From: a virus
Lineage: Duplodnaviria > Heunggongvirae > Uroviricota > Caudoviricetes
Direction: 5' to 3' (one strand)
DNA: 20,880 nucleotides
IMG/VR virus record: IMGVR_UViG_3300029080_000072
Shown here: positions 1-18,713 of the stretch, piece by piece
How the letters are laid out: each line of letters starts with the position of its first letter
Numbering within the stretch: position 1 is the stretch's first letter
Translations under genes and position numbers: made by a program
Notes under the pieces: generated by a model
Database searches by the model: none
Seen by the model: only the letters and a program-made list of their open reading frames with translations
Told to the model about the DNA's origin: nothing

Positions 1-522
1 TCCTGCGCTGGAAGACGCTGACTGAGCCGACGTCGCGGCCTGCCCGGCTGATGTGCTGGCTGCACGTGCTGAGCCTGTAGCATCAGTCGCATGGGTTGCC
101 GCCTCACGGGCTGATGTGCCGGCATCGCTGGCTGACTTCTTCGCGGCTGCCGTGTCCTGTGCCACTGCGGACGCGTTACGCGCCACCTCTTCCACCATCA
201 GTTCAAAGCGGCGCAGTGCCTCCGGACGGGCATCATCCTCCGTCATGGCACCGAGAAAATCATTCAGCGTACCCGGTTGTGAGTCTTCATACACGGTGAT
301 GGTCCCGGCATGCGATGGCGGGAAGCCTTCCACCAACAGAATAACGCTGTACTGACCGTACTCAACGTCCATGCTGTAACGCCCTGCTTCATCCGGATTT
401 TCAGATGCCACCGTGTTCACCACCACCGTGGTGCTGTTACGTTTTGCTTTCAGCTGGATTGTGCAGTTCTGTACTGGTTTACCTGCACCGTCTTTCAGTA
501 CACCTGAAATCTTTACTGCCAT
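1..522 (-). CDS. stf: Side tail fiber protein Stf, N-terminal part (C-terminus runs off the window start)
   Basis: Minus-strand translation from ATG at 522-520 gives MAVKISGVLKDGAGKPVQNCTIQLKAK..., continuing into the Ala/Ser/Thr-rich segment (...ASTSAGQAATSAQSASSSAG) with no stop before position 1; matches remembered lambda Stf N-terminus. Confidence 0.85.
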   Translation of the reverse strand, partial: MAVKISGVLKDGAGKPVQNCTIQLKAKRNSTTVVVNTVASENPDEAGRYSMDVEYGQYSVILLVEGFPPSHAGTITVYEDSQPGTLNDFLGAMTEDDARPEALRRFELMVEEVARNASAVAQDTAAAKKSASDAGTSAREAATHATDATGSARAASTSAGQAATSAQSASSSAG

Positions 523-532
523 ATTCACCCCA

Positions 533-560
533 CAAAAAAGCCCGCCTGAACCGGCGGGCT
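533..560 (-). terminator. Putative rho-independent terminator between lom remnant and stf
   Basis: GC stem gcccgcc/ggcgggc (540-559) followed on the minus strand by a T6 run (complement of 533-538). Confidence 0.5.
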
Positions 561-586
561 GTCATAACACTGTGTTACCTGGCTAA

Positions 587-1124
587 TCAGAACTTATAAC
601 CGACACCCACGATGAAACCGTCAGTGCGCCAGTCGCCACTGCCGGAGCCTTCATAAACAATATCAATGGCCACGGATTCGGTCGGGTTAAACTGCACGCC
701 AGCCCCCCACGCCAGAGACGTGTTGCTGCGGCGACCGTCATCACTTCCGGTCAGCACTTCGTGCGTTTTCCCCTTGTTGTCAGTTACGCGGAGATAATCC
801 CCGGAGAAAGTCGAAATACGGCTGTAAGCCACACCCGCCATCGCATACGCGCTGAACCATTCATTCACGCGCACAGACGGCCCCGCCATCACGCTGAACC
901 AGCGGTTACGCACGGAATCTTCATGCCAGCGGGTATCGCTGTAATGAGTCAGCTGGCGATTCTTGTCTTCTGCATAGCTGAATGACGTCACCATCCCCAG
1001 CGTGTCCGTAAACTCATAACGGTATTTCACGTTAATCCCGTTAAGATCATCGCTGCCGGGAACGTTCGTCGAGGCATGAAGATACCCCGCGCTCAGCGTG
1101 GACTGATGTTCAGACGCCCATGCA
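587..1124 (-). pseudogene. lom: lom (Ail/Lom outer membrane protein) remnant lacking start codon and most of the signal peptide
   Basis: In-frame translation gives ...SGAPAWASEHQSTLSAGYLHASTNVPGSDDLNGINVKYRYEFTDTLGMVTSF...GFIVGVGYKF, matching lambda Lom from the end of its signal peptide to the C-terminus; upstream of about 1124 the sequence switches to terminase A. Confidence 0.8.
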
Positions 1125-1380
1125 GGCGCACCGGATAACCGACACGGGCAGACTTCACCACATTCACCTCACGGATGTAGTCGCTGCCCATCGCATTCAT
1201 GATGGCCCGCTGAAAGGGCAGTGTTTCCCAGCGCCCTTCCTGGTATGCGGATTCTTTCGGGAGATAGTAATTAGCATCCGCCCATTCAACGGCAGTCTGT
1301 GGCTCCGGCCTGAACAGTGAGCGAAGCCCGGCGCGGACAAAATGCCGCAGCATGTTAACCTGACTGTTCGATATATTCAC
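1125..1380 (-). pseudogene. A: Terminase large subunit gpA, N-terminal ~85 codons only, fused out of frame to lom
   Basis: MNISNSQVNMLRHFVRAGLRSLFRPEPQTAVEWADANYYLPKESAYQEGRWETLPFQRAIMNAMGSDYIREVNVVKSARVGY matches the remembered lambda gpA N-terminus; after ARVGY the frame runs ~13 codons into out-of-frame lom sequence and stops at 1093. Confidence 0.85.
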
Positions 1381-1900
1381 TCAGCAACCCCGGTATCAGT
1401 TCATCCAGCGCGGCTGCTTTGTTCATGGCTTTGATGATATCCCGTTTCAGGAAATCAACATGTCGGTTTTCCAGTTCCGGAAAACGCCGCTGCACCGACA
1501 GGGGGATCCCGTCGAGAATACTGGCAATTTCACCTGCAATCCGCGACAGCACGAAAGAACAGAATGCGGTTTCCACCACTTCAGCGGAGTCTCTGGCATT
1601 TTTCAGCTCCTGTGCGTCGGCCTGCGCACGCGTAAGTCGATGGCGTTCGTACTCAATAGTCCCTGGCTGGAGATCTGTCTCGCTGGCCTGTCGCAGTTCT
1701 TCAACCTCCCGGCGCAGCTTTTCGTTCTCAATTTCAGCATCCCTTTCGGTATACCATTTTATGACGGCGGCAGAGTCATAAAGCACCTCATTACCCTTCC
1801 CACCGCCTCGCAGAACGGGCATTCCCTGCTCCTGCCAGTTCTGAATGGTACGGATACTCGCACCGAAAATGTCAGCCAGCTGCTTTTTGTTGACTTCCAT
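1355..1900 (-). CDS. nu1: Terminase small subunit Nu1
   Basis: 181-aa product MEVNKKQLADIFGASIRTIQNWQEQGMPVLRGGGKGNEVLYDSAAVIKWY... is near-identical to lambda Nu1; its 3' end overlaps the A start as in lambda. Confidence 0.92.
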   Translation of the reverse strand: MEVNKKQLADIFGASIRTIQNWQEQGMPVLRGGGKGNEVLYDSAAVIKWYTERDAEIENEKLRREVEELRQASETDLQPGTIEYERHRLTRAQADAQELKNARDSAEVVETAFCSFVLSRIAGEIASILDGIPLSVQRRFPELENRHVDFLKRDIIKAMNKAAALDELIPGLLSEYIEQSG

Positions 1901-1904
1901 TGTT

Positions 1905-2130
1905 CATTCCACGGACAAAAACAGAGAAAGGAAACGACAGAGGCCAAAAAGCCCGTTTTCAGCACCTGTCGCTTCCTTTCTTTTCAGAGGGTATTTTAAA
2001 TAAAAACATTAAGTTATGACGAAGAAGAACGGAAACGCCTTAAACCGGAAAATTTTCATAAATAGCGAAAACCCGCGAGGTCGCCGCCCCGTAACCTGTC
2101 GGATCGCCGGAAAGGACCCGCAAAATGATA
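1905..2130 (-). other. cos site (cosB terminase-binding R elements, cosN, cosQ side)
   Basis: Minus strand reads ggggcggcgacctcgcgggttttcgctatttatgaaaattttccggtttaaggcgtttccgttcttcttcgtcataacttaatg...; the 12-nt cohesive-end sequence GGGCGGCGACCT is the complement of 2078-2089; repeated cgtttcc R-type elements lie between it and nu1. Confidence 0.8.
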
Positions 2131-2288
2131 ATAATTATCATCTACATGTCACAACGTGCATCTACGTCATCAAACCACGTCAAATAATCAATTATGACGC
2201 AGGTATCGTATTAATTGATCTGCATCAACTTAACGTAAAAACAACTTCAGACAATACAAATCAGCGACACTGAATACGGGGCAACCTC

Positions 2289-2483
2289 ATGTCAACTAAG
2301 AACAGAACCCGCAGAACAACAACCCGCAACATCCGCTTTCCTAACCAAATGATTGAACAAATTAACATCGCTCTTGAGCAAAAAGGGTCTGGGAATTTCT
2401 CAGCCTGGGTCATTGAAGCCTGCCGTCGGAGACTAACGTCAGAAAAGAGAGCATATACATCAATCCAAAGTGATGATGAATAA
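2289..2483 (+). CDS. Small conserved ORF near the lambda right end (hypothetical)
   Basis: 64-aa ORF MSTKNRTRRTTTRNIRFPNQMIEQINIALEQKGSGNFSAWVIEACRRRL...; the DNA resembles the lambda right-end region as remembered; function unknown. Confidence 0.4.
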   Translation: MSTKNRTRRTTTRNIRFPNQMIEQINIALEQKGSGNFSAWVIEACRRRLTSEKRAYTSIQSDDE

Positions 2484-2848
2484 ACATCCCGGTTTCTTCC
2501 ACCATCGCACCGGAAAAGCGACTATGAGGGTAACCCTGCGTCTGTCAGCACAGTAAAACCCGGTGTGCATCGTTTTTGATTATTCCCGCACACTCACGCA
2601 GAAGGAATTCCCCGTCGGGCTACGGTCATGGTTAATGCGGGAATACGGCGACGATACAGCGCAGCTAAAAGGGTAATGGACAGATAGAGCGGTTTATTTC
2701 ATTCCACAGGATTCTGAGTGCCCCCCTCCTCCAATAGGCTGAGCATCCACCTATATAGTTTTAGTTTTAATTTTCATCAATCCATTTAACTATCGTTTAA
2801 TTGTTGTCACATAGGATTCTGCCGTTTTTAACAATGCAGGATAATAAG

Positions 2849-3142
2849 ATGAAAAAAATGTTGTTTTCTGCCGCTCTGGCAATGCTTATTACAGGATGTG
2901 CTCAACAGACGTTTACTGTTGGAAACAAACCGACAGCAGTAACACCAAAGGAAACCATCACCCATCATTTCTTCGTTTCGGGAATTGGACAGGAGAAAAC
3001 TGTTGATGCAGCCAAAATTTGTGGCGGCGCAGAAAATGTTGTTAAAACAGAAACCCAGCAAACATTCGTAAATGGATTGCTCGGTTTTATTACTTTAGGC
3101 ATTTATACTCCGCTGGAAGCGCGGGTGTATTGCTCACAATAA
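2849..3142 (+). CDS. bor: Bor lipoprotein (serum-resistance lipoprotein)
   Basis: MKKMLFSAALAMLITGCAQQTFTV...GIYTPLEARVYCSQ has a lipobox (LITGC) and matches remembered lambda Bor; AGGA precedes the ATG at 2849; the tracked ORF start at 2801 is an upstream extension. Confidence 0.9.
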   Translation: MKKMLFSAALAMLITGCAQQTFTVGNKPTAVTPKETITHHFFVSGIGQEKTVDAAKICGGAENVVKTETQQTFVNGLLGFITLGIYTPLEARVYCSQ

Positions 3143-3152
3143 TTGCATGAGT

Positions 3153-3170
3153 TGCCCATCGACATGGGCA
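3153..3170. terminator. Hairpin between convergent bor and Rz (possible bidirectional terminator)
   Basis: tgcccat-cgac-atgggca inverted repeat; no strong T-tract on either side. Confidence 0.3.
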
Positions 3171-3173
3171 GCT

Positions 3174-3635
3174 CTATCTGCACTGCTCATTAATATACTT
3201 CTGGGTTCCTTCCAGTTGTTTTTGCATAGTGATCAGCCTCTCTCTGAGGGTGAAATAATCCCGTTCAGCGGTGTCTGCCAGTCGGGGGGAGGCTGCATTA
3301 TCCACGCCGGAGGCGGTGGTGGCTTCACGCACTGACTGACAGACTGCTTTGATGTGCAACCGACGACGACCAGCGGCAACACCATCACGCAGAGCATCAT
3401 TTTCAGCTTTCGCATTAGCTAACTCCTTCGTGTATTTTTCATCCAGTGCAGCAACATCACGCTGGCGCATCTGCATGTCAGTAATTGCCGCGTTCGCCAG
3501 CTTCAGTTCTCTGGCATTTTTGTCGCGCTGGGCTTTGTAGGTAATGGCGTTATCACGGTAATGATTAACAGCCCATGACAGGCAGACGATGATGCAGATA
3601 ACCAGAGCGGAGATAATCGCGGTTACTCTGTTCAT
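3174..3635 (-). CDS. Rz: Rz i-spanin
   Basis: [45 protein letters not shown]...QKYINEQCR is near-identical to lambda Rz; its ATG (3635-3633) overlaps the R stop. Confidence 0.9.
3233..3415 (-). CDS. Rz1: Rz1 o-spanin lipoprotein, embedded in Rz in another frame
   Basis: [60 protein letters not shown]: lipobox and proline-rich segment, matches lambda Rz1. Confidence 0.85.
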
Positions 3636-4129
3636 TGCTGACCCCACAAACAGATTTCACGCTCAATCTCACGACGAGTCATGAGACCTTTCCATTGCTT
3701 ACCGCCAGCATATGTCCAGCGACGTAGCTGATCACATGCGCCTTTGATATCGCCCTGGTTTATTTTGCGAAGAAGCGTCGATGTTCTGAAATTGCCAGCG
3801 CCCACGTTGTAAACGAACGAGTAAAGAGCGCCGCGCGTTGTTTCCGGTATATCAACTTTTATGTACGGGTTAATTTGTCTGGCGACCGTGGCAAGGTCTT
3901 TATTCAGGAGGGCTTTGCATTCTGCTTTGGTATACGTTTTACCGAGCATGATGTCTTTTCCTGTATGCCCGTGACATACAGTCCATACACCAACAATATC
4001 TTTGTATGGTATGTAGCTGACACCTTCCAGACCATCGTTACCACTTGGGCCAGTGATTAACACTGATGCTATAGCAATTGCTCCGCCACCAATAGCAGCA
4101 GCAACGGCTTTTCGTAATGATGGAGGCAT
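3632..4129 (-). CDS. R: SAR endolysin, phage-21/DLP12 RrrD type (T4-lysozyme-like)
   Basis: [59 protein letters not shown]... has an N-terminal Gly/Ala-rich signal-anchor-release segment followed by a lysozyme-like body; matches remembered R21/RrrD. Confidence 0.9.
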
Positions 4130-4344
4130 TATTCACCTCTCGCAGCCTTGCGCTTATCTTCTTTAATCTTGAAATAAAGGTTTGTCAGGTACGTCAGCAG
4201 GCCAAATACCAGGCTACCCAGCACACCTATTGCTGCCCACTGTGAGGGCGTGACTTTATCGAGCAGCTGTAAAAACCAGTAACCGGCACTACCTGCTGAG
4301 GTGCCATAGGCGACACCCGTTGTTAACTTATCCATGGATTTCAT
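4129..4344 (-). CDS. S: Class II holin (pinholin, S21/EssD type) with dual-start motif MKSM
   Basis: [71 protein letters not shown]; ATGs at 4344 and 4335 (Met1/Met4); GAGGTGGGG Shine-Dalgarno upstream; the tracked ORF start at 4389 is an extension. Confidence 0.85.
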
Positions 4345-4389
4345 AACCCCACCTCGCAGACAAAGCGGGTGTAAATTGAGGGAATACAA

Positions 4390-4932
4390 CGTATCGCAAA
4401 AAAGCAGAAACGTAACAGACTCGGAGTCAGTGAATAACTCAGGTATTGAGTTATCAGCTAATATCGAGACTCAAAAAATGGAAAAACCAGCTCGACGGCG
4501 GGTTTAAGCTGTGTGACGAAGTAACCACTCTTAACAGCATAACCAATTTTTTACGTACGTAAACCACTGAATGATATTTATGAGAATGCTACCGAGTGTT
4601 CAAAACACCACCACAAATACATAAGAAAACCTCAACAAATAACCAATAAATAATTTCAGACGTTATTTTTAGTTGATTTAAATTAAACTGCCGAATTATA
4701 GAACCTCCATAAATAACAACCATTAATATAAATTAGCTAATAGGTTTATTTTTGTTCAAATAAGAGCCATAAATAGGTTTCGATAGAAAAAGTTCAGATA
4801 AAAATAGAGATCTACTTCACAAATTAAATGAGAAACTAAAACTTACATCTTGAAATAATCACATTGATTAGATGAATATTTATCGCGCAGTGACATCATT
4901 TTTTAATAATAGTTCAAAAAAAAGGGCTCACG
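4390..4932 (+). promoter_or_regulatory. AT-rich ~540-bp upstream region of the porin gene (promoter/regulatory, exact elements not resolved)
   Basis: Very AT-rich non-coding stretch directly upstream of the porin ATG; AAGGG precedes the start. Confidence 0.4.
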
Positions 4933-6015
4933 ATGAAAAAATTAACAGTGGCAATTTCTGCTGTAGCTGCATCAGTACTGATGGCGATGTCTGCTCAGGC
5001 AGCTGAAATTTATAATAAAGACAGTAACAAGCTGGATCTATATGGGAAAGTTAATGCCAAGCACTACTTCTCCTCTAATGATGCAGATGATGGTGATACT
5101 ACTTATGCCCGTCTTGGCTTCAAAGGTGAAACCCAAATCAACGATCAACTGACTGGTTTCGGTCAGTGGGAATATGAATTCAAAGGCAACCGCGCTGAAT
5201 CTCAAGGCTCCTCCAAAGACAAAACCCGTCTTGCATTTGCAGGCCTGAAATTCGGGGACTACGGCTCAATCGATTACGGCCGTAACTACGGTGTAGCATA
5301 TGACATCGGTGCGTGGACTGACGTTCTGCCAGAATTCGGTGGCGATACCTGGACCCAAACAGATGTGTTCATGACTGGTCGCACCACTGGTGTTGCAACT
5401 TATCGTAACAACGACTTCTTTGGTCTGGTTGATGGTCTGAACTTTGCTGCTCAGTATCAGGGTAAAAATGACCGCACTGACGTAACTGAAGCTAATGGTG
5501 ATGGTTTCGGTTTCTCCACTACTTATGAGTATGAAGGATTCGGTGTAGGTGCAACCTATGCTAAATCTGACCGCACTAATAATCAGGTTATCTACGGTAA
5601 CAACAGCCTGAATGCATCTGGTCAAAATGCTGAAGTATGGGCAGCTGGTCTGAAATATGATGCGAACAACATCTATCTGGCTACCACCTATTCTGAAACC
5701 CAGAACATGACTGTTTTTGGTAATAACCATATTGCCAACAAAGCACAAAACTTCGAAGTAGTTGCACAATATCAGTTCGACTTCGGTCTGCGTCCGTCCG
5801 TTGCTTACCTGCAATCTAAAGGAAAAGACTTGGGTGCGTGGGGTGATCAGGACCTGGTTGAATATATTGATGTAGGTGCAACCTATTACTTCAACAAAAA
5901 TATGTCCACTTTTGTTGATTACAAAATCAACCTGATTGATAAGAGCGATTTCACGAAAGCATCTGGCGTTGCTACCGATGATATCGTTGCTGTAGGTATG
6001 GTTTACCAGTTCTAA
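4933..6015 (+). CDS. nmpC: OmpC/OmpF-family general porin (phage-borne NmpC/Lc-like), apparently intact
   Basis: 360 aa with signal peptide [23 protein letters not shown], typical porin beta-strand pattern and C-terminal ...VGMVYQF; matches remembered NmpC/Lc. Confidence 0.9.
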
Positions 6016-7459: not shown

Positions 7460-7622
7460 GATTCCTCCTTGCTGCCAGTCGCAACCATTTTTTATCAACC
7501 AGGCTGGCGGTATATCCGAGCAGAGTTGGTATTTCGGATGGCTTCAGCTCAGGTTTACGCTTACGACGATTTGGTACTTTGTAGATGTGTCCGTTCATGA
7601 CACGAATAAGCGGTGTAGCCAT
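7452..7622 (-). CDS. ninE: NinE
   Basis: [56 protein letters not shown]; ATG at 7622 overlaps the ybcN stop. Confidence 0.85.
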   Translation of the reverse strand: MATPLIRVMNGHIYKVPNRRKRKPELKPSEIPTLLGYTASLVDKKWLRLAARRNHG

Positions 7623-8077
7623 TACGCCTCCTGCTTGTCGCGCAGCAGCTGGAACTCGCAGCGCTGCGGAATAGTCAGGTGGCAACCAATATTCATCGCC
7701 CAGGCTTCAACCTTACACAGGAAGACATACATCTCTCCGGTATCAAGATCGGAGGTATGGCGTAACGACTGGATAGTGGTGATATCACCGGTTACGACAT
7801 CAACCAGTTCTTTGGTTTCATAACCGAGATAAGTGTGTTTCAGAGCATCCTTCACCCACTCTGGCGTAGCGAAAGTCTTACCCCGGCTGATGAGGTATTC
7901 GCTGATTTCGGTGTACCACATGTGGCTTAAGCTATTTTGAGACAGGCTGCGCTTATCGCGCCATGGCTTCAGTACCATGCGGAAGCACTTGCCGTCCTCC
8001 AGATAAGGCTGGAGCTGCTGACCGATAGCGGTGAAGTTACCGCGATGAAGTTTGATGCCGTCTTGTGGGAGGTTCAC
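7622..8077 (-). CDS. ybcN: YbcN-family protein (DLP12 ybcN homolog)
   Basis: [62 protein letters not shown]... (151 aa) matches remembered YbcN. Confidence 0.85.
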
Positions 8078-8198
8078 GCTTCACCTCCGCAGAGGTCAAA
8101 CGCTGGATGCAAAAAATCGCAGGTGCATTTCTGCATCTGTGGCGGGAGAAGAGAGTTTAGATTGTATGTGCGCATAAACGTCCCCGTTTAGCGCAGAA

Positions 8199-8227
8199 GT
8201 CACCGGAGTTGTTCAGGCTCCGGTGAC
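8199..8227. other. Strong 10-bp-stem hairpin in the spacer between the NADAR gene and ybcN
   Basis: gtcaccggag ... ctccggtgac perfect inverted repeat with ~9-nt loop; no adjacent U-tract. Confidence 0.4.
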
Positions 8228-8337
8228 ATGATTATGGCTGGTTGATTATAGAAAATCAAAAACCTTTTATGGCAACAAAAAAACGCCGAGGGAGGTACGC
8301 CAGTTAATTTATGGAAGAAAATGCCCCAGATGGAACG

Positions 8338-8967
8338 CTAAAACAAGGATAAACTTTGCCCTGCTCCAGGCGTTGGCTTTACAAATGTTACATCTTTAAT
8401 TCTTTCGCCTAGGAGAAAAAATTTGTCCAAAGATAGCGATGGTATTGTTGCAAACCCATCAGCCCCCTTTTTCCTAGCAACCCCTCTCACGTCCATGAGA
8501 ATTCGCCCTAATACGTTCATACCATAATAGTTACCTTCTGGGTCTTTACTGGCACCCCAGAATTGGTCCTTCTCTGAGTGTTCCACGATGAAATGGTCGC
8601 CTGTACTGTCTAACAGCGCAAAGAACGTATCCCAGTTCTGGCATAATTTTACGCATACACACCACTTCATAATCGAAACTCGATTCTTATCCCATCCTGC
8701 GCGAGTTTTGGATTCAAACGATCTTGCGGTCTGCTTGGCTTCATAGGGGTTTCCTTGAGTAATGATGGCCTTTTGTATATCCGGATAGTCTGGATATCGG
8801 CATGCTTGGTAAAGGATTTCACTTGATTGAATAGGCAACCCATTGATTAACAATGGATATCCTTTAGCCATGTTGGAAAGCCCCCCCCATTTTTCGGTGG
8901 TTTTCCTGAAGGAAACTGTGTTCTGTAGCGGATATAATCTATAGCTCATACCACTCATTATACCCAT
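8338..8967 (-). CDS. NADAR (YbiA/DUF1768-like) domain protein, predicted N-glycosidic/ADP-ribosyl hydrolase
   Basis: Motif pattern GGLSNM ... IQSSEILYQACRY ... IVEHSEKDQFWGA ... G.N.LGRILMDVR parallels E. coli YbiA (FSNF ... TSEHYFQAQKF ... VEHTENDAYWGDG ... GKNRLGYLLMELR); start ambiguous among ATGs at 8967, 8958, 8949, all overlapping the upstream gene. Confidence 0.7.
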   Translation of the reverse strand: MGIMSGMSYRLYPLQNTVSFRKTTEKWGGLSNMAKGYPLLINGLPIQSSEILYQACRYPDYPDIQKAIITQGNPYEAKQTARSFESKTRAGWDKNRVSIMKWCVCVKLCQNWDTFFALLDSTGDHFIVEHSEKDQFWGASKDPEGNYYGMNVLGRILMDVRGVARKKGADGFATIPSLSLDKFFLLGERIKDVTFVKPTPGAGQSLSLF

Positions 8968-9970
8968 TCCGCTTCATTAGTGGATACCAGCAGTCCAATG
9001 CGGGAGCACCTGTTGGTTCATAATCTCCCCACCAAAAAGCCAGCGGCACATTATTCGGGCAATTTCGATAAGTAAATGTTGTTCCCCCAAAACCCAAACC
9101 GTCAAAAGTAGAAAAACCTAGAGGTTTGAGCACCTCACTAGGGGTTTTCCTGTGCAGCAAGATATTAAAGCCGACTTTAGTAAGGATAGATTCGAAACGA
9201 TCCCTTGAGGCTTCATTTCTAAAACTATCAGAAGAGGCATATCCATCTCTGAATACGCCTTTGTAAAGCTCACACTCCTCGAATTTCTCGGGAGTATCTA
9301 CACTATATTTCCTTGGCCAGAAAACACCTGATTGAGCAGAACGACTTTTTCGGTTTTCAACCTCACGCATACCACCATTCTTCACGTGTACAAAAATGTT
9401 TCTATCCTTAAAAATATATTCTAATCGTCTTTTTATATTATAGTCAGATAACGTATGAGATGAAAAAAAATATACATTGAATTTAATATCTCTTAAATTA
9501 AATTTTAAAACAAAATTACTTATCGATTTGATGGCCTTTTCTCCTGAAAACGACACATCATCAATATATACAAATGTATCAAATTTATTTACTTCATCTT
9601 GAGTTGATGATTCAGTAACGATGTTAAATTTGATCCCTACTGTTTCATAAAGAGATTTAAGCAATTCCTTCTGACTAGAACCTTTTTTTTGAATATCTAA
9701 AAAACCTGCATATCTGAAGAATTTCGCGTTCTTTTCACTTCTTGCAATGGCTTTTATTTTTCGTTGATATTGACTTTCGGATAGGTAACCTGCATTAAGT
9801 AGATAAAGCGTTTCATCTAAGATAAATCGTCTATCCTCCACTGCAAATTGCTTAATCCATTTGCTGACATGTTCAGAGTTCATACCTTCAGCCGGAGGAT
9901 ATTTATAATCGCTCAACTTTTCAGCAATTTTATTGATTACTTTTTCACCAGATAAAATATTCGAGGACAT
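8939..9970 (-). CDS. Unassigned 343-aa protein (AT-rich cargo gene); weak PRTase-like DD motif; function unknown
   Basis: Uninterrupted ORF with AGGA 8 nt upstream of the ATG; FVYIDDVSFSGEKA resembles a type-I phosphoribosyltransferase PRPP motif; Trp/Gly-rich C-terminus; no family I recognise. Confidence 0.7.
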   Translation of the reverse strand: MSSNILSGEKVINKIAEKLSDYKYPPAEGMNSEHVSKWIKQFAVEDRRFILDETLYLLNAGYLSESQYQRKIKAIARSEKNAKFFRYAGFLDIQKKGSSQKELLKSLYETVGIKFNIVTESSTQDEVNKFDTFVYIDDVSFSGEKAIKSISNFVLKFNLRDIKFNVYFFSSHTLSDYNIKRRLEYIFKDRNIFVHVKNGGMREVENRKSRSAQSGVFWPRKYSVDTPEKFEECELYKGVFRDGYASSDSFRNEASRDRFESILTKVGFNILLHRKTPSEVLKPLGFSTFDGLGFGGTTFTYRNCPNNVPLAFWWGDYEPTGAPALDCWYPLMKRNGYNEWYEL

Positions 9971-10181
9971 AAAAATTCCTTTTCACAACACAGAATCTAA
10001 AAAATAAGAATACTTTTATTTATTTCAAGTATAGACCGTATATTCAACTACTTTTTTTTATAGTAGGGAGATACCGATCACAATTTTTAGATATCTAATG
10101 TGATGGTTTAATAACCAGCAGTCTTACGTGTTAATTCACGTAAAAAAACTCATCAAACCTTCCTCTTTTCAGTTAATTCTT
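9971..10181 (-). promoter_or_regulatory. AT-rich upstream region of the cargo cassette with a TACGTG-N6-CACGTA palindrome (10125-10142)
   Basis: ~210 bp, very AT-rich, between the methyltransferase stop and the cassette start; the palindrome is followed by an A7 run. Confidence 0.35.
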
Positions 10182-10766
10182 TTAAGAATAAACATCAGTA
10201 ACTCGGGCCGGGCTTAATGCTACGGTTGGCGAATCACACTTGTTTCCCCATACGTCGAAACCGTGGGAGGATTTACGCGCAAAGAGCTCAATACGTGGAA
10301 GATTACCCAGCAACCGAACCAGCATTTCACGCACGCAGTCTGGTTTACGTGAGTGCTCATGTCGCGGCGAGGTGTAGTGCTGGATGATCGAGGCGTCCTG
10401 CTGTGGTGCCCGCTTACCCTTTACCGCGAAAAGACAATCTTCACGGTTCGCCCGGATCAGGTGTCCCATTCCCATCGCCGATTTGTCAGTTTGCTTCGGG
10501 TAGGTTTTATCCCAAGTGAAACCTTTCATTGTGATCAGGCGAAATCCCCAGGCATCGACGACTTTCATCGCCTCGAACGTTTGAGTTGGCAACCACCACA
10601 TCGCCAGCTGGCAGCTTTCTGCAACCCGCTCCCTTACTGGCAGCCAGCAGATATCCTGCACCGTCATAACCAAGTATTTATGCCCGGTGCCACGCTTACC
10701 AGAATTGCATTTATCCTCGTACGTCCAGGGCGGATCCGCTTAGATCAACGTGTATTTCTTGTTCAT
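10182..10766 (-). pseudogene. Dam-like N6-adenine DNA methyltransferase (DPPW motif) interrupted by an in-frame TAA at codon 9
   Basis: Minus strand from ATG 10766 reads MNKKYTLI-TAA-ADPPWTYEDKCNSGKRGTGHKYLVMTVQDICWLP...; the stop (10742-10740) sits where intact homologs, as I remember them, have Tyr in LIYADPPW. Confidence 0.75.
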
Positions 10767-10768
10767 GG

Positions 10769-11455
10769 TTAAATAAATCCGACTGCTTTACGCGCTTTGT
10801 ATTGCTCAAGCAAAAGCTGAGCGGGAGTCGGCCCGGGCACGTGGCGCGGAGCCGAGATTTGTTTTCTGACCGGAGGGATTGGTTTGCCCTCACTGACGCG
10901 CTTCTCCCACATGTCCAGCAGGTCACCAGCCTCGCATGCCAGCTCGCCATGCGTTAACTGGCGCTCAATGCTACGGTGGCGCAGTTCGACGCAGATGTGG
11001 TACATGACAGGCTGTGACCACGGGAAATGCTCGCTGGAAGTGAATTCGAAGGAACGATTACGCCAATCCCAGTATTCGGTTATGACTTGGTCAACAGTGA
11101 TACCTAACGCCCCGCCACTCTGCTTACACCACGCTACGAACTGGCCGGGCGACGGCAGGAATGGTCGCTCCTGTCGGCGGGCCACGCGCATTCCGGCGTT
11201 AACCTGCTCCATAGTGGTAATTCCATTTTCACGGAAAGCCATAACCCACTGACGGCGGATTTCGTTCAGCTCGTTCTGGTCGCGGTTCGCGAGGCTTGCC
11301 GGAAATGTCGCAAGCAGCTGGCTGAACACACCGTTGATGATCTGCGCCACCTGCTGCACCTGCGGCTTTTCGTCGTATTGTTCCGGCATGTTGTTGGCGA
11401 TTCGACGCATCTGCTCACGGTCAAAGTTAATCATCTGCGCGGCAATATTTTTCAT
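10769..11455 (-). CDS. P: Replication protein P (helicase loader); lambda-like N-terminal half, divergent C-terminal half
   Basis: MKNIAAQMINFDREQMRRIANNMPEQYDEKPQVQQVAQIINGVFSQLLATFPASLANRDQNE... near-identical to lambda P over ~110 aa. Confidence 0.9.
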   Translation of the reverse strand: MKNIAAQMINFDREQMRRIANNMPEQYDEKPQVQQVAQIINGVFSQLLATFPASLANRDQNELNEIRRQWVMAFRENGITTMEQVNAGMRVARRQERPFLPSPGQFVAWCKQSGGALGITVDQVITEYWDWRNRSFEFTSSEHFPWSQPVMYHICVELRHRSIERQLTHGELACEAGDLLDMWEKRVSEGKPIPPVRKQISAPRHVPGPTPAQLLLEQYKARKAVGFI

Positions 11456-12467: not shown

Positions 12468-13007
12468 TCATATTGCCCCCAGCATGGTGGTGACCATCGC
12501 CATCAATGGACCAGCCAGATCCGGGTCCACTCGAAACATCGACACAATGCCTTCACTCATCTCCTTCAGTTTCTGGTGGCGTGGTGCGTTGAGAATGACC
12601 GCCTGCTTTGCCTCACAGAGTTCCTTTTCCATTTCAGCCAGCCGAGCCATGAAGCTATCCTGCTCAACCAGGTGGCCGCGATATTCCAGCGGTAGTACCG
12701 CCAGAATTGCCGGGGTCAGTTCACGCACGTTATTTCGGTATTTTTCAGAATCGAATTTGTTATCGAGGAAGCGGAACAGCTTCTGGCGTGCACGGCTGAC
12801 ATCATCAGGGAAATCGATAGTGCCGCCGCCCTGCTCCCGATACTCATTCACAATGAGTGTGGCAACGACATCCTGATTATCTTCAGCCGACCAGGCGCGG
12901 ACGGCATCACGGATTTTTTCGTGGCCTGGCACCTGTTTTGTTTGAGAACGATTTATCACCGCAGTCGGGCTAAATCCGCTAGTCTGTTGGTATGTAAGTG
13001 GTTGCAT
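12468..13007 (-). CDS. cII-position protein, 179 aa, possibly YdaT-family
   Basis: Good Shine-Dalgarno (AAGGAG) and position between cro and O; not lambda CII-like; the LTPAILAVLPLEYR segment resembles what I recall of YdaT-type proteins (weak memory). Confidence 0.5.
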   Translation of the reverse strand: MQPLTYQQTSGFSPTAVINRSQTKQVPGHEKIRDAVRAWSAEDNQDVVATLIVNEYREQGGGTIDFPDDVSRARQKLFRFLDNKFDSEKYRNNVRELTPAILAVLPLEYRGHLVEQDSFMARLAEMEKELCEAKQAVILNAPRHQKLKEMSEGIVSMFRVDPDLAGPLMAMVTTMLGAI

Positions 13008-14180: not shown

Positions 14181-14450
14181 ATGAGTGATAAAAAACTTAT
14201 AAAAAAATCAAATAACTGTGTAGATGCATATGCTGATGCATTTGGATATTCATCTTTTGGGGAAGATGACGATCGCTTAGGCTCCATATCTTTCTTTCAG
14301 CATGTTACAGAATGGGGCGCTGATGGTAGTAATGACACTGAAAACGTAAAGTACAACATTGCAACAATTCGCATGACGGAAGATTTAATGCTTAAACTCG
14401 CTGACTTTATTCGCGATCAGCATGATAGAGCTAAAACCAATAAGTCATAA
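14181..14450 (+). CDS. Hypothetical acidic 89-aa protein, first gene of cI-linked cassette
   Basis: ORF with GGGAAAGG Shine-Dalgarno; AT-rich; no family recognised. Confidence 0.55.
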   Translation: MSDKKLIKKSNNCVDAYADAFGYSSFGEDDDRLGSISFFQHVTEWGADGSNDTENVKYNIATIRMTEDLMLKLADFIRDQHDRAKTNKS

Positions 14451-14458
14451 TATTAACA

Positions 14459-14899
14459 ATGAAACACGGTTATTACGAAGCTCCAAACCTAACTGAAAAG
14501 CTTGAACAAGCGGCAAGATCATCATCTTTGCACACTGCAGCATTTTCTCAATCAGCTGGTATGTCTGGCGGTAATGTACCTATGCTACAATCAAGTGGTA
14601 GCGGTGGCTCTGGGAGTAATAATGTGCTTGAATCGAAAGTTGCAAAGCTTGAGTCTGATGTGTCCTATATCCGACGTGACGTTGATGAGCTTAAGACAGA
14701 TGTCAAATCTATCGACAGAAACATGATCGCTGTTCTGGAGCGACTCGATTCAATAAAAGATTCACTAGCCAAAAAACCCTCCATCGATGCTGTCGATAGA
14801 AAGATTTCAGACGCAAAGCTTGCGGTATTGCTTGGTGTTCCAGCAATCATCGCTGCAGGAACAGGTCTTTATAAGCTATCAATGTACTTTTTTCTTTAG
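14459..14899 (+). CDS. Coiled-coil protein with C-terminal transmembrane anchor (possibly XhlA-like), second gene of cI-linked cassette
   Basis: Heptad-like segment LESKVAKLESDVSYIRRDVDELKTDVKSIDRNMIAVLERLDSIKDSL and hydrophobic tail LAVLLGVPAIIAAGTGLYKLSMYFFL; starts 8 nt after the previous stop. Confidence 0.55.
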   Translation: MKHGYYEAPNLTEKLEQAARSSSLHTAAFSQSAGMSGGNVPMLQSSGSGGSGSNNVLESKVAKLESDVSYIRRDVDELKTDVKSIDRNMIAVLERLDSIKDSLAKKPSIDAVDRKISDAKLAVLLGVPAIIAAGTGLYKLSMYFFL

Positions 14900-17497: not shown

Positions 17498-17652
17498 CGC
17501 ATCCTCACGATAATATCCGGGTAGGCGCGATCACTTTCGTCTACTCCATTACAAAGCGAGGCTGGGTATTTCCCGGCCTTTCTGTTATCAGAAATCCACT
17601 GAAAGCACAGCGGCTGGCTGAGAAGATAAATAATAAACAGGAGGATATATGA
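17494..17652 (+). CDS. Unannotated 52-aa micro-ORF translationally coupled between exo and the DGQHR gene
   Basis: ATG overlaps the exo stop (ATGA at 17494-17497) and its TGA overlaps the DGQHR ATG (ATGA at 17649-17652); product [52 protein letters not shown]; below the ORF-track size cutoff. Confidence 0.4.
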
Positions 17653-18713
17653 GTCAGGTTGGTAATCATTCATTCGAATTTCCGGCATCGCAAGGTGTAC
17701 AGGGTGGTACTGTTACACTCTTCCTTACCATACCAGGAAGATCGCTGGCTCGTTTCCTCGCTTCAGATAATTACGGCCATACACTGGAACGCTCTCAGCG
17801 AGAAATTAATCCAAATCGAGTACGAAAATTTTTAAATTATCTCACTAACGCAGACTCAAGAAATGAGTCTTTTATCATTCCCCCTCTCGTAGGTAACTGT
17901 GATTCGAATATAGAATTTGTACCGTTTGGCAACACAAATGTTGGTATAGCCAGAATTCCCCTCGACGCCGAAATAAAACTTTTTGATGGCCAACATCGTG
18001 CAGCTGGCATTGAGATATTTTGCCGAAGTTCCCCATCAACGCTCATGGTTCCCATGATGCTTACAATGAATCTGCCGCTAAAAACCCGGCAGCAGTTCTT
18101 TTCGGACATAAATAACAACGTTTCTAAGCCATCAGCGACCATCAATATGGCGTATAACGGCCGGGATGATATTGCTCAGGGAATGATATCCTTCCTGACC
18201 CAACATACTGTATTTGCCGATATAACCGATTTTGAACACAACGTAGTGCCATTAAAAAGTAATATGTGGGTGAGTTTCAAGGCACTCACTGATGCAACGT
18301 CAAAGTTTGCTAGGAACGGCAATCAACAACTTGAAATGGGATATATAGAATCTGTCTGGGAGGCATGGATTACACTAACTCAGATTGACTCAATCCGACA
18401 TGGTGTACACCACGCTACGTACAAGCGCGATTATATTCAGTTCCATGGAGTAATGATTAACGCTTTCGGTTTTGCGGTTCAACAGATGATGGTTAATCAT
18501 TCCATCGCAGAAATAACTTCTATGATCGAAAAACTCTGTGCAACTACCAGCTCTGCAGAAAGAGAGGATTTTTTTCTGATGGATAACTGGGCGGGGATCT
18601 GCACGAAAGCCAGCCAGGAAAAACTATCGGTTATTGCCAATGTGGCAGCGCAGAAAGCAGCAGCAAACAGACTGATACAAGCTTTTACCAAAGGAAGTCT
18701 GGAAACAACTTAA
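17649..18713 (+). CDS. DGQHR-domain (DndB-like, ParB/Srx-fold) protein
   Basis: Contains the literal motif FDGQHRAAGIE preceded by a region resembling what I recall of DndB-like proteins; AGGAGG 5 nt upstream of the ATG. Confidence 0.7.
   Translation: MSQVGNHSFEFPASQGVQGGTVTLFLTIPGRSLARFLASDNYGHTLERSQREINPNRVRKFLNYLTNADSRNESFIIPPLVGNCDSNIEFVPFGNTNVGIARIPLDAEIKLFDGQHRAAGIEIFCRSSPSTLMVPMMLTMNLPLKTRQQFFSDINNNVSKPSATINMAYNGRDDIAQGMISFLTQHTVFADITDFEHNVVPLKSNMWVSFKALTDATSKFARNGNQQLEMGYIESVWEAWITLTQIDSIRHGVHHATYKRDYIQFHGVMINAFGFAVQQMMVNHSIAEITSMIEKLCATTSSAEREDFFLMDNWAGICTKASQEKLSVIANVAAQKAAANRLIQAFTKGSLETT

What the first reader, a model, noticed from the sequence alone, without database searches (positions are those of the whole stretch)
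8939..9970. 343-aa protein: weak PRTase-like acidic motif and an S-S-x-T ... E-x-E pattern, otherwise unrecognisable
The segment FDTFVYIDDVSFSGEKAIKSI (about residues 130-150) resembles the PRPP-binding signature of type-I phosphoribosyltransferases (four hydrophobics, two Asp, then small residues). PRTase-like effectors occur in known defense toxins such as ShosT. Separately, FFSSHT (about 158-163) followed ~40 residues later by REVEN (202-206) weakly resembles the S-T-S ... E-x-E spacing of R-S-E ADP-ribosyltransferases. Either would make biochemical sense next to a NADAR eraser, but both are short-motif observations that could be chance. The Trp/Gly-rich C-terminus (PLAFWWGDYEPTGAPALDCWYPLMKRNGYNEWYEL) is distinctive.
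Basis: inference. Interest (0 to 1): 0.6.

Follow-up and report, generated by a model that had tools for sequence, protein, structure and literature searches.

The report
Known DS-32 phage-defence phosphoribosyltransferase gene
This gene is the phosphoribosyltransferase-like half of DS-32, a two-gene anti-phage system that has already been published and tested; it sits in an E. coli prophage next to its NADAR partner, and only its chemistry is still unknown.

Summary
The 343-aa ORF is real but lies on the minus strand (8939-9970). It is not unrecognisable. It matches Pfam PRTase-CE (E=6e-39) and the NCBIfam equivalog DS32_1_antiphage (313 bits, cutoff 250). Its sequence is identical to WP_000097610.1, the DS-32A protein that DeWeirdt et al. 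(Science 2026) cloned with its NADAR neighbour and showed to protect E. coli from phages.

The PRTase reading is supported:
- D137/D138 and the [ST]-G-x-[RK] phosphate loop are conserved in 110 homologues.

The ART reading is rejected. There is no ART fold, and S170, S171, T173, R202 and E203 are not conserved.

New context found here:
- In 118 of 118 related loci a catalytically intact YbiA-type NADAR follows immediately downstream.
- In about a quarter of the loci that NADAR is fused to a DNA-recognition module: type I HsdS, the Hma methylase, or HHH.
- The family shares hallmark motifs with retron type III-A PRTase effectors.

Best mechanistic guess (inferred, about 0.4): a PRPP-dependent phosphoribosyl "writer" acts on nucleobases, probably in DNA, and the NADAR "eraser" reverses it.

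Novelty: already known. The mechanism is open.

The parts
8939..9970 (-). DS-32A: 343-aa PRTase-CE (phosphoribosyltransferase-like) anti-phage protein, WP_000097610.1
   Evidence: ORF and translation. Pfam PF24390 E=5.9e-39. NCBIfam NF053875 312.7 bits against a cutoff of 250. RefSeq annotation. Sequence identical to the one printed in DeWeirdt et al. Table S8.
9707..9970 (-). N-terminal helical region, residues 1-88, family-specific, with conserved W38, Q41 and F42
9341..9706 (-). Type-I PRTase alpha/beta core, about residues 89-210
9671..9691 (-). Q94-K-K-G97-S-S99-Q100: conserved loop after the first core strand, a candidate PPi-binding loop
   Evidence: Q94, G97, S99 and Q100 are at least 98% conserved. 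The position follows strand 89-92 of the model. The role is inferred from type-I PRTase architecture and was not checked on coordinates.
9536..9577 (-). PRPP-binding loop T132-FVYIDDVSFSGE-K145, with D137/D138 and the 5-phosphate loop S142-G143-x-K145
   Evidence: D137 and D138 in 110/110, S or T at 142 in 110/110, G143 in 109/110, R or K at 145 in 104/110. Aligns with the PyrR PRPP loop VILVDDVLYTGRT. Coordinates checked.
9353..9358 (-).
   Evidence: E205 in 107/110 and N206 in 101/110, whereas R202 and E203 vary.
8942..9340 (-). C-terminal family-specific region, residues 211-343. Residues 281-337 are the most conserved part of the protein
9044..9100 (-). G291-LGFGGTTFTYRNC-P305NNVP309: the 'G...PNNxP' hallmark shared with retron type III-A PRTase effectors
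   Evidence: G293, F294, G295, R302, N303, C304, P305, N306, N307 and P309 are at least 98% conserved. The retron motif Gx14PNNxP is described in PMC12746101. Coordinates checked.
8969..8989 (-). W328-YPLMK-R334: C-terminal peptide resembling the retron effector's essential 'YYPxxLR' peptide
   Evidence: W328, P330, L331 and R334 are at least 98% conserved and Y329 at least 90%. In Retron-Eco11 the YYPxxLR peptide exists and Y405A/Y406A abolish defence.
8338..8949 (-). DS-32B: 203-aa YbiA-type NADAR glycohydrolase, WP_032260665.1. Its ATG lies inside the last 11 nt of DS-32A (ATGAGCTATAG), which suggests translational coupling
   Evidence: Pfam NADAR E=5.7e-23. NCBIfam NF053876 257.4 bits against a cutoff of 240. 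E=2e-11 to E. coli YbiA 2b3w. Catalytic residues are conserved in 81 partner NADARs. The overlap was checked. RefSeq start.
9971..10181 (-). AT-rich (27.5% GC) upstream intergenic region with a Shine-Dalgarno AAGGA 7 nt before the ATG and one weak sigma-70-like site (10028-10001)
   Evidence: GC values and upstream sequence. Promoter scan, which is no better than the shuffled expectation. Weak evidence only.

Best explanation
SHOWN (confidence at least 0.95). The ORF encodes DS-32A. It is the phosphoribosyltransferase-like protein of the published two-gene anti-phage system DS-32, and it is followed by its translationally coupled partner DS-32B, a YbiA-type NADAR. The pair is a low-GC cassette in the nin region, between replication gene P with an MT-A70 pseudogene and ninB/ybcN, of a DLP12-like lambdoid prophage of E. 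coli. The protein has a type-I PRTase core with an intact PRPP-binding loop. It also has a family-specific N-terminal helical region and a very conserved C-terminal region that carries the same hallmark motifs as retron type III-A PRTase effectors.

INFERRED (about 0.4).
1. DS-32A is the toxic effector.
2. It uses PRPP to transfer 5-phosphoribose onto a nucleobase nitrogen, most likely an exocyclic amine of a base in DNA. This blocks replication of phage DNA, and of host DNA if unchecked.
3. DS-32B hydrolyses that N-glycosidic ribosyl-base bond and so acts as the eraser or antitoxin.

The logic would be that of DarT-NADAR, but with PRPP in place of NAD+ and phosphoribose in place of ADP-ribose. 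In relatives where the NADAR is fused to HsdS or to the Hma methylase, the eraser would be tethered to the DNA-recognition subunit of a restriction-modification system. How infection tips the balance towards the writer is unknown.
For: Identity:
- Pfam PRTase-CE and NADAR.
- NCBIfam DS32_1 and DS32_2 equivalogs, both above their cutoffs.
- Sequence identical to WP_000097610.1 and WP_032260665.1, cloned as 'NADR' = DS-32 and scored defensive. Published -log10 EOP values are 3.7 on Bas26 and 1.6 on RB69.
- RefSeq annotation of the identical locus in E. coli E94.

Fold:
- AF2 model with pLDDT 93.2 and pTM 0.91.
- PRPP-loop residues invariant and aligned with the PyrR PRPP loop.

Effector role:
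- PADLOC model PRTase_III-A, E=7.5e-11 over residues 10-334.
- DeWeirdt et al. list Retron_III~PRTase as the nearest known defence protein.
- The motifs G..PNNxP and [YW]YPxxxR are shared with Retron-Eco11. There the PRPP motif and the two Tyr are essential, and activation lowers PRPP.
- Other family members carry N-terminal LRR, Sel1 or FGE-sulfatase domains, as conflict effectors often do.

Writer/eraser pair:
- A NADAR lies immediately downstream in 79/79 genome loci and 39/39 viral loci that were retrieved through PRTase motifs only.
- One member fuses both domains in a single chain.
- The NADAR partners keep the YbiA catalytic set: S25, N26, E44, Q48, R51, W86, E123, D128, W131 and G132 are each present in at least 80 of 81 sequences.
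- Published NADAR substrates are N-ribosyl bonds to exocyclic amines: ADP-ribosyl-guanine N2, and the 5-phosphoribosylamino-pyrimidine intermediates of riboflavin synthesis.

DNA as target:
- The NADAR is fused to HsdS inside hsdM-PRTase-NADAR::hsdS-hsdR operons. There are 18 such genome loci plus 6 viral loci.
- It is fused to the HmaB methylase inside HmaA-PRTase-NADAR::HmaB-HmaC in 5 loci, and to HHH_3 in 3 loci.
- One PRTase-CE protein is fused to an HRDC domain.
- Retron relatives are fused or linked to a winged-helix DNA-binding domain.
- Both E. coli proteins are basic, pI about 9.
Against: - No biochemical activity is known for any PRTase-CE protein.
- No type-I PRTase is known to modify a macromolecule.
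- For the retron relative the only measured effect is a modest fall in PRPP (about 50%, P=.04). ShosT binds PRPP without a known acceptor. Both fit a small-molecule mechanism equally well.
- The E. coli DS-32B has no DNA-binding fusion.
- Whether DS-32A alone is toxic, and whether DS-32B rescues it, has not been reported.
- The fusions to restriction-modification subunits could reflect guarding of those complexes rather than a DNA substrate.
- The active-site geometry of the model could not be inspected, because no coordinates were available.
Confidence: 0.4

Rival explanations
1. Metabolite-level mechanism. DS-32A consumes PRPP, by hydrolysis or by transfer to a free base or nucleotide, and starves the phage of nucleotide precursors. 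This is what has been proposed for Retron-Eco11 and ShosT. The NADAR would either split the small-molecule product, so that the pair forms a futile cycle with the net reaction PRPP -> ribose-5-phosphate + PPi, or detoxify that product in uninfected cells.
For: [quoted passage not shown] ShosT binds PRPP and perturbs purine metabolism. E. coli YbiA-type NADARs cleave small 5-phosphoribosylamino-pyrimidines. The PRPP loop is intact. A single-chain PRTase-CE plus NADAR protein fits a two-step cycle.
Against: It does not explain why the NADAR is repeatedly fused to HsdS, HmaB or HHH, why one PRTase is fused to HRDC, or why retron relatives carry a winged helix. Retron and ShosT PRTases work without a NADAR.
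Confidence: 0.3
2. Guard model. The NADAR neutralises the PRTase mainly by binding it, and it is tethered to restriction-modification complexes, or in E. coli to an unknown host factor. A phage anti-restriction or host-takeover protein that disturbs this complex releases the toxin. The logic is that of PrrC with EcoprrI.
For: The cassette lies inside type I R-M and Hma operons with the NADAR fused to the specificity or methylase subunit. DarG is reported to bind DarT directly as well.
Against: The NADAR catalytic residues are essentially invariant in 81 partners, which argues for an enzymatic role. Most loci, including the window, have a stand-alone NADAR and no adjacent R-M system. The model is not exclusive of the best explanation.
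Confidence: 0.12
3. The PRTase-like protein is a non-catalytic nucleotide or PRPP sensor, like PyrR or PurR or the ppGpp-binding PRT-like protein 5vog, and the NADAR is the real effector.
For: PRT-fold regulators exist and appear among the structural matches: PyrR, PurR and 5vog with ppGpp.
Against: The acidic pair and the phosphate loop are invariant. In Retron-Eco11, defence is lost when the PRPP motif of the homologous PRTase, which is the effector there, is mutated. Sensor-like LRR and Sel1 domains are fused to the PRTase, as expected for an effector. No NADAR is known to be toxic.
Confidence: 0.08
4. One reading: an R-S-E type ADP-ribosyltransferase that uses NAD+, with FFSSHT as the S-T-S motif and REVEN as E-x-E.
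For: Only the short-motif resemblance in this one sequence, and the fact that NADARs are known partners of ARTs.
Confidence: 0.01

Closest known systems
DS-32 (DS-32A PRTase + DS-32B NADAR), DeWeirdt et al., DefensePredictor, bioRxiv 2025 / Science 2026; NCBIfam NF053875 and NF053876
   Same: Both protein sequences are identical (WP_000097610.1, WP_032260665.1), as are the gene order and the overlap. Both NCBIfam equivalog cutoffs are passed.
   Different: Nothing differs: this is the same system in another E. coli genome. The publication gives no mechanism.
Retron type III-A PRTase effectors (e.g. Retron-Eco11; cluster 67_3 of Mestre et al. 2020)
   Same: PRT core with a PRPP loop, the G...PNNxP motif, the C-terminal [YW]YPxxxR peptide, and a match to the PADLOC PRTase_III-A model at E=7.5e-11. 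Both are defence effectors, and both are linked to DNA-binding modules.
   Different: There is no reverse transcriptase, ncRNA or msDNA. The partner is a NADAR in 118 of 118 loci. The acidic pair is DD rather than TD. The E. coli protein has no winged-helix domain.
DarT1-NADAR (DarTG1) toxin-antitoxin system
   Same: The order is putative toxin first, then a NADAR glycohydrolase. It is an anti-phage system, and its NADAR erases a ribosyl adduct from a base in DNA.
   Different: The upstream enzyme has a PRT fold, not an ART fold. The donor is presumably PRPP, not NAD+. The NADAR is of the YbiA type, with Glu E123 and no Asp two residues before it, rather than the DarT1-associated BC4488 type.
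ShosTA (ShosT = pyrophosphatase + PRTase toxin; ShosA = DprA-like antitoxin)
   Same: A PRT-fold defence toxin that binds PRPP.
   Different: It belongs to a different PRTase family. DS-32A has no pyrophosphatase domain and no DprA-like partner, and no Pfam family other than PRTase-CE matches it.
E. coli YbiA (NADAR N-glycosidase, PDB 2b3w)
   Same: DS-32B aligns with YbiA at E=2e-11 and keeps its catalytic residues. In K-12, ybiA shares a LexA-controlled operon with ybiB, a DNA-binding protein with predicted phosphoribosyltransferase activity, so this is a second NADAR-PRT pairing.
   Different: YbiA is a stand-alone housekeeping or SOS gene. DS-32B has an extra tail of about 45 residues and an obligate PRTase-CE partner.

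Membership tests
DS-32 anti-phage system (NCBIfam NF053875 / NF053876) | Score above the curated equivalog cutoff for both proteins | tested here: met
   312.7 bits against 250, and 257.4 bits against 240.
DS-32 anti-phage system (NCBIfam NF053875 / NF053876) | Two-gene operon, PRTase-like gene followed by NADAR gene | tested here: met
   Adjacent on the minus strand with an 11-nt overlap. The same arrangement is found in 118 of 118 related loci.
DS-32 anti-phage system (NCBIfam NF053875 / NF053876) | Protects against phage when expressed | not testable with these tools
   Published for the identical sequences: defensive = TRUE, with -log10 EOP of 3.7 on Bas26 and 1.6 on RB69.
Pfam PF24390 PRTase-CE | Score above the gathering threshold with full-length profile coverage | tested here: met
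   134.9 bits against 27; profile positions 1-253 of 253 cover residues 35-334.
Type-I phosphoribosyltransferase superfamily | Alpha/beta PRT core fold | tested here: met
Type-I phosphoribosyltransferase superfamily | PRPP loop: hydrophobic strand, two acidic residues, then a [ST]-G-x-[TRK] 5-phosphate loop | tested here: met
   FVYIDDVSFSGEK. DD in 110/110, S or T in 110/110, G in 109/110, R or K in 104/110. Aligned with PyrR VILVDDVLYTGRT.
Type-I phosphoribosyltransferase superfamily | PPi loop and flexible catalytic loop | tested here: inconclusive
   An invariant Q94..G97.S99.Q100 loop follows the first core strand. No coordinates or residue-level structural alignment were available to confirm its role.
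Type-I phosphoribosyltransferase superfamily | PRPP-dependent phosphoribosyl transfer | not testable with these tools
   No assay has been reported for any PRTase-CE protein. For the retron relative there is only indirect evidence, a fall in PRPP.
Retron type III-A system | PRTase effector with the G..PNNxP and C-terminal YYPxxLR motifs | tested here: met
   G291-x13-P305NNVP309 and W328YPLMKR334, compared with the motifs in PMC12746101. PADLOC PRTase_III-A E=7.5e-11.
Retron type III-A system | Adjacent reverse transcriptase and msr/msd ncRNA | tested here: not met
   No RT is annotated in the window. The neighbour is a NADAR in all 118 loci. The protein is therefore a relative of the effector, not a retron. 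No ncRNA search was run.
R-S-E ADP-ribosyltransferases | ART fold | tested here: not met
R-S-E ADP-ribosyltransferases | Conserved Arg, S-T-S and E-x-E motifs | tested here: not met
   R202 varies (mostly L, I, F or V). S170 in 4/110, S171 in 11/110, T173 in 39/110, E203 in 28/110.
DarTG1 (DarT1-NADAR) | DarT ADP-ribosyltransferase toxin | tested here: not met
   The upstream protein has a PRT fold. DeWeirdt et al. found no similarity to DarT.
DarTG1 (DarT1-NADAR) | BC4488-type NADAR with a catalytic Asp in the last strand | tested here: not met
   DS-32B has the YbiA-type Glu (E123, aligned with YbiA E125) and Ile at the -2 position.
NADAR superfamily, YbiA family (for the partner DS-32B) | Pfam NADAR above threshold and catalytic residues conserved | tested here: met
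   82.4 bits against 35.1. E=2e-11 to YbiA. S25, N26, E44, Q48, R51, W86, E123, D128, W131 and G132 are each kept in at least 80 of 81 partner NADARs.

The most novel reading that the evidence does not exclude
DS-32A and the PRTase-CE family, including retron type III-A effectors, are PRPP-dependent nucleic-acid phosphoribosyltransferases. They would write a so far undescribed base modification, N-(5-phosphoribosyl) on an exocyclic amine such as guanine N2, on DNA. YbiA-type NADARs would be the dedicated erasers, and in many bacteria these are built into the DNA-recognition subunit of type I R-M and Hma systems. That would be a second base-ribosylation immune chemistry, independent of NAD+, parallel to DarT-NADAR. 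It might also explain the ybiA-ybiB pairing in the E. coli SOS regulon.
Probability: 0.3. Interest if true: 0.85.

Novelty: already known. Interest (0 to 1): 0.35.

Why it matters
As an identification, it matters little.

What remains open is the chemistry. No PRTase-CE enzyme has a known acceptor, and that includes the effectors of type III-A retrons. The comparative evidence gathered here narrows the question to a directly testable one: does this enzyme put phosphoribose from PRPP on DNA bases, and does the NADAR take it off? That evidence is:
- an obligate, catalytically intact NADAR partner;
- recurrent fusion of that NADAR to HsdS, the Hma methylase or an HHH domain;
- an HRDC fusion of the PRTase itself.

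If the answer is yes, it would define a new nucleic-acid modification and a new writer-eraser immune module. It would also explain the retron type III-A effectors.

Tried and rejected
- The ART (R-S-E) reading was rejected on fold and on conservation.
- A sequence-profile search of the PDB found only the PRPP loop of PyrR, at E about 1. At sequence level, therefore, only the PRPP loop is recognisable, and the fold assignment rests on the structure model.
- The afdb50 fold library was not available.
- The second word-indexed protein search, run with the profile, listed only close relatives and showed no retron members. The exhaustive representative search likewise listed only the top 150. The link to retron effectors therefore rests on the PADLOC model, on the HHblits hit listed by DeWeirdt et al., and on the published motifs, not on a direct alignment with a retron effector sequence.
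- Megablast of the cassette against 50,697 GenBank phage records found nothing. It is found in prophage-derived IMG/VR contigs instead.
- A literature search for 'PRTase-CE' returned no paper. A search for phosphoribosylation + PRPP + phage + DNA also returned none.
- The promoter scan upstream of the cassette was no better than the shuffled expectation.
- An AF2 prediction of the DS-32A/DS-32B complex was not attempted. Concatenated sequences are not accepted, and neither interface scores nor coordinates are returned.
- The UPGMA ordering of the PRTases suggests that fused and stand-alone forms are interspersed, but it is not a proper phylogeny. I make no claim about the number of independent fusion events.
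Full report
**1. The observation**

The window has an ATG-initiated ORF of 343 codons at 8939-9970, but on the minus strand; the plus-strand frame is full of stops. A Shine-Dalgarno sequence AAGGA lies 7 nt upstream of the ATG.

- FDTFVYIDDVSFSGEKAIKSI at residues 130-150;
- REVEN at 202-206;
- the Trp/Gly-rich tail at 309-343;
- the two Asp at D137/D138, not 136/137;
- FFSSHT at 168-173, not about 158-163.

**2. What it is**

The protein is far from unrecognisable.
- It matches Pfam PF24390 'PRTase-CE' over the whole profile (E=5.9e-39).
- It matches PHROG 8525 end to end (E=3.5e-221).
- It matches the PADLOC model PRTase_III-A (E=7.5e-11, residues 10-334).
- It matches the NCBIfam equivalog NF053875 'DS32_1_antiphage, phosphoribosyltransferase-like anti-phage protein' at 312.7 bits, cutoff 250.

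The next ORF downstream is a NADAR (Pfam E=5.7e-23). It passes NF053876 'DS32_2_antiphage' at 257.4 bits, cutoff 240.

DS-32 is one of the systems that DeWeirdt et al. predicted with DefensePredictor and validated in E. coli. They describe it as a PRTase (DS-32A) plus a NADAR protein (DS-32B) whose NADAR resembles the DarTG antitoxin, while the PRTase has no similarity to DarT.
- Their supplementary tables give the cloned proteins as WP_000097610.1 and WP_032260665.1, and the printed sequences are identical to the two window ORFs.
- The system is flagged defensive.
- The listed -log10 EOP values are 3.70 for Bas26, 1.60 for RB69, 0.88 for SECphi18, 0.62 for T5 and 0 for Bas67, with smaller plaques in each case.
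- Their HHpred assignment was 'PRTase', residues 129-196 against UPRT 3DMP. Their nearest known defence protein was 'Retron_III~PRTase'.

**3. Genomic setting**

The window is 100% identical to E. coli E94 chromosome NZ_CP119740.1, positions 2916049-2936928. It is a DLP12-like defective lambdoid prophage. Its genes run int, xis ... exo, bet, gam, kil, cI, cro, a YdaT-domain protein, O, P, an MT-A70 pseudogene, then DS-32A and DS-32B, then ybcN (ninB), ninE, ybcO, rusA, quuD, an ompC-like porin, essD, rrrD, rzpD, iss/bor and nohD, followed by truncated terminase and lom genes.

The cassette therefore sits in the nin region.
- Its GC content is low: 35.6% for DS-32A, 43.5% for DS-32B and 27.5% for the upstream spacer, against 52-56% for the flanking MT-A70, P and ybcN genes.
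- The RefSeq start of DS-32B lies inside the last 11 nt of DS-32A (ATGAGCTATAG), which suggests translational coupling.
- Nineteen of 5,426 complete E. coli genomes carry the cassette at 99% identity or more, and 43 more carry matches at 60-80% identity.
- In one of them, strain TD225-C4, the same cassette follows O, P and MT-A70 but has a different downstream context.
- In related prophage contigs an allele only 52% identical occupies the same slot between P and ninB. Its O and nin-region flanks are mostly 91-100% identical, while P is about 62% identical. This is the pattern of a swappable moron at a hot spot.

**4. PRT fold or ART fold**

I aligned 98 homologues with 28-76% identity to the query and predicted the structure from that alignment. 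The model has mean pLDDT 93.2 and pTM 0.91.
- Foldseek against the PDB gives XGPRT, HPRT, UPRT, OPRT and PyrR.
- No ADP-ribosyltransferase appears in either list.
- No solved structure covers the whole protein: query-normalised TM-scores are about 0.2-0.3.

From the secondary structure of the model and the extent of the structural matches, I divide the protein into three parts (my estimate; no residue-level structural alignment was returned):
- a helical region, residues 1-88;
- a PRT core, about residues 89-210;
- a family-specific C-terminal region, residues 211-343.

At sequence level only the PRPP loop is recognisable. The family consensus F-I-Y-L-D-D-V-x-F-S-G-x-R aligns with PyrR V-I-L-V-D-D-V-L-Y-T-G-R-T.

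Conservation across 110 unique family members from 118 loci:
- PRPP loop: D137 and D138 in 110/110, S or T at 142 in 110/110, G143 in 109/110, R or K at 145 in 104/110.
- Only E205 (107/110) and N206 (101/110) of 'REVEN' are conserved.
- The most conserved stretch is residues 281-337, with a mean top-residue frequency of 0.70 against 0.48 elsewhere.

**5. Relation to retron effectors**

The paper on Retron-Eco11, a type III-A3 retron, describes three features of its PRTase-like effector: a PRPP motif, a retron-specific motif Gx14PNNxP, and a C-terminal peptide YYPxxLR. Mutating the PRPP motif or the two Tyr abolishes defence. Activation by phage helicases lowers PRPP by about 50%.

DS-32A has G291-x13-P305NNVP309 and W328-Y-P-L-M-K-R334, both nearly invariant in its family. 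Taken with the PADLOC and HHblits hits, DS-32A is a stand-alone relative of the retron type III-A effector. It is not part of a retron: no RT is annotated in the window.

**6. The partner and its fusions**

I retrieved related loci using patterns taken from the PRTase only.
- In 79 of 79 genome loci with a PRTase-CE ORF, spread over many phyla, a NADAR ORF follows immediately on the same strand.
- The same holds in 39 of 39 IMG/VR loci.
- The 81 partner NADAR domains keep the catalytic set of the YbiA family. S25, N26, E44, Q48, R51 (Lys in YbiA), W86, E123, D128, W131 and G132 are each present in at least 80 of 81.
- DS-32B aligns with E. coli YbiA at E=2e-11.
- It has the YbiA-type Glu, and it lacks the Asp two residues earlier that marks DarT1-associated NADARs.

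In about a quarter of the loci the NADAR ORF is long.
- In 18 genome loci and 6 viral loci it is fused N-terminally to a type I specificity subunit (Pfam Methylase_S). Where the contig reaches far enough, hsdM is found upstream of the pair and, in most loci, hsdR downstream, giving the order hsdM, PRTase-CE, NADAR::hsdS, hsdR.
- In 5 loci it is fused to a DUF1156 DNA methylase identified as HmaB. In the four loci whose contigs extend far enough, it lies between HmaA (an SNF2 helicase) and HmaC (a DUF499 ATPase).
- In 3 Dehalococcoidia loci it carries an HHH_3 domain and is preceded by a radical-SAM protein with HHH motifs.

The exhaustive search counts 1,241 cluster representatives for the family. 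Among them are:
- a single-chain PRTase-CE plus NADAR protein;
- a PRTase-CE plus HRDC protein;
- proteins with LRR, Sel1 or FGE-sulfatase domains N-terminal to PRTase-CE.

**7. Mechanism**

Shown: the identity, the fold, the intact PRPP loop, the obligate and catalytically intact NADAR partner, and the recurrent tethering to DNA-recognition modules.

Established knowledge:
- Type-I PRTases transfer 5-phosphoribose from PRPP to a nitrogen nucleophile.
- NADARs hydrolyse N-ribosyl bonds to exocyclic amines. Known substrates are ADP-ribosyl-guanine N2 in DNA and the 5-phosphoribosylamino-pyrimidines of riboflavin synthesis.

Inference: DS-32A writes a 5-phosphoribosyl adduct on a nucleobase, most likely in DNA, and DS-32B erases it. 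This is the logic of DarT-NADAR with PRPP in place of NAD+. I put it at about 0.4.

The main rival, at about 0.3, is a metabolite-level mechanism: PRPP or nucleotide depletion, as proposed for Retron-Eco11 and ShosT, possibly with the NADAR closing a futile cycle. It explains the metabolite data, but not the fusions to HsdS, HmaB, HHH, HRDC and the winged helix.

A guard model, in which the NADAR is tethered to R-M complexes to sense anti-restriction proteins, is compatible with either chemistry.

One published side-light: in E. coli K-12, ybiA shares a LexA-controlled operon with ybiB, a DNA-binding protein with predicted phosphoribosyltransferase activity. That is a second, independent NADAR-PRT pairing.

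I found no paper that describes PRPP-dependent modification of DNA in defence. I also found no mention of the PRTase-NADAR fusions to R-M subunits in the papers I read. The searched library is incomplete.

**8. Verdict**

The finding is real but already known. It is DS-32A, with the sequence identical to the validated system.
- The ART idea is wrong.
- 'Unrecognisable' is wrong.

What remains of interest is the unsolved chemistry. The comparative evidence above turns it into a sharp, testable hypothesis.

Noticed in passing
L003/L027, L020, L025, L029, L030, L033, L038, L041, L042, L055, L059, L062, L063, L066, L067, L079, L080, L082 (genomes); L117, L119, L120, L123-L125 (viral contigs): In these relatives the NADAR partner is fused N-terminally to a type I restriction-modification specificity subunit (HsdS). 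The PRTase-NADAR pair sits inside the operon in the order hsdM, PRTase-CE, NADAR::hsdS, hsdR. I found no description of this arrangement in the papers searched.
   Followed up: yes
L036, L046, L049, L058, L074: Here the NADAR is fused to a DUF1156 DNA methylase, HmaB. In the four loci whose contigs extend far enough (not L046), it lies between the HmaA SNF2 helicase and the HmaC DUF499 ATPase. The cassette is thus embedded in an Hma system, also called a DUF499-centred BREX-related system.
   Followed up: yes
L056, L068, L077 (Dehalococcoidia): The NADAR carries a C-terminal HHH_3 DNA-binding domain, and the pair is preceded by a radical-SAM protein with HHH motifs. This recalls the rSAM + PHP + PRTase 'Ophion' system described in a 2025 preprint.
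   Followed up: partly
P0297, P0223, P0316, P0251, P0309 (representative proteins): Other architectures of the PRTase-CE domain: PRTase-CE + NADAR in one chain, PRTase-CE + HRDC, LRR + PRTase-CE, Sel1 repeats + PRTase-CE, and FGE-sulfatase domain + PRTase-CE. Their genomic contexts could not be looked up.
   Followed up: partly
L094-L100, L102, L104, L113, L126 compared with window 7622-11455: Related lambdoid prophages carry a DS-32 allele only 52% identical at the same position between P and ninB. Their O and nin-region flanking genes are mostly 91-100% identical, while P is about 62% identical. This suggests cassette swapping at a nin-region hot spot.
   Followed up: partly
window 10182-10766 (-): An MT-A70 family DNA methyltransferase gene lies directly upstream of the cassette. 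RefSeq annotates it as a pseudogene with an internal stop, and only a 163-aa ORF remains open.
   Followed up: no
window 17649-18713 (+): An orphan DndB-like DGQHR-domain protein (Pfam DndB E=3e-46; PADLOC DndB) lies in the early-left region after exo and a DUF1317 gene, with no other dnd genes nearby.
   Followed up: partly
window 14181-14450 and 14459-14899 (+): Two small ORFs of 89 and 146 aa lie directly downstream of the cI-like repressor, where lambda has rexA and rexB. They match no confident Pfam or PADLOC family and may be another exclusion moron.
   Followed up: no
window 12468-13007 (-): A protein with a YdaT_toxin domain (Pfam E=2.6e-29) occupies the cII position between cro and the replication genes.
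   Followed up: no
window 1-6015: The prophage is defective and resembles DLP12. It has truncated lom and terminase pseudogenes, an iss/bor lipoprotein gene (2849-3142) and an ompC-like porin gene (4933-6015) between Q and the lysis genes.
   Followed up: no
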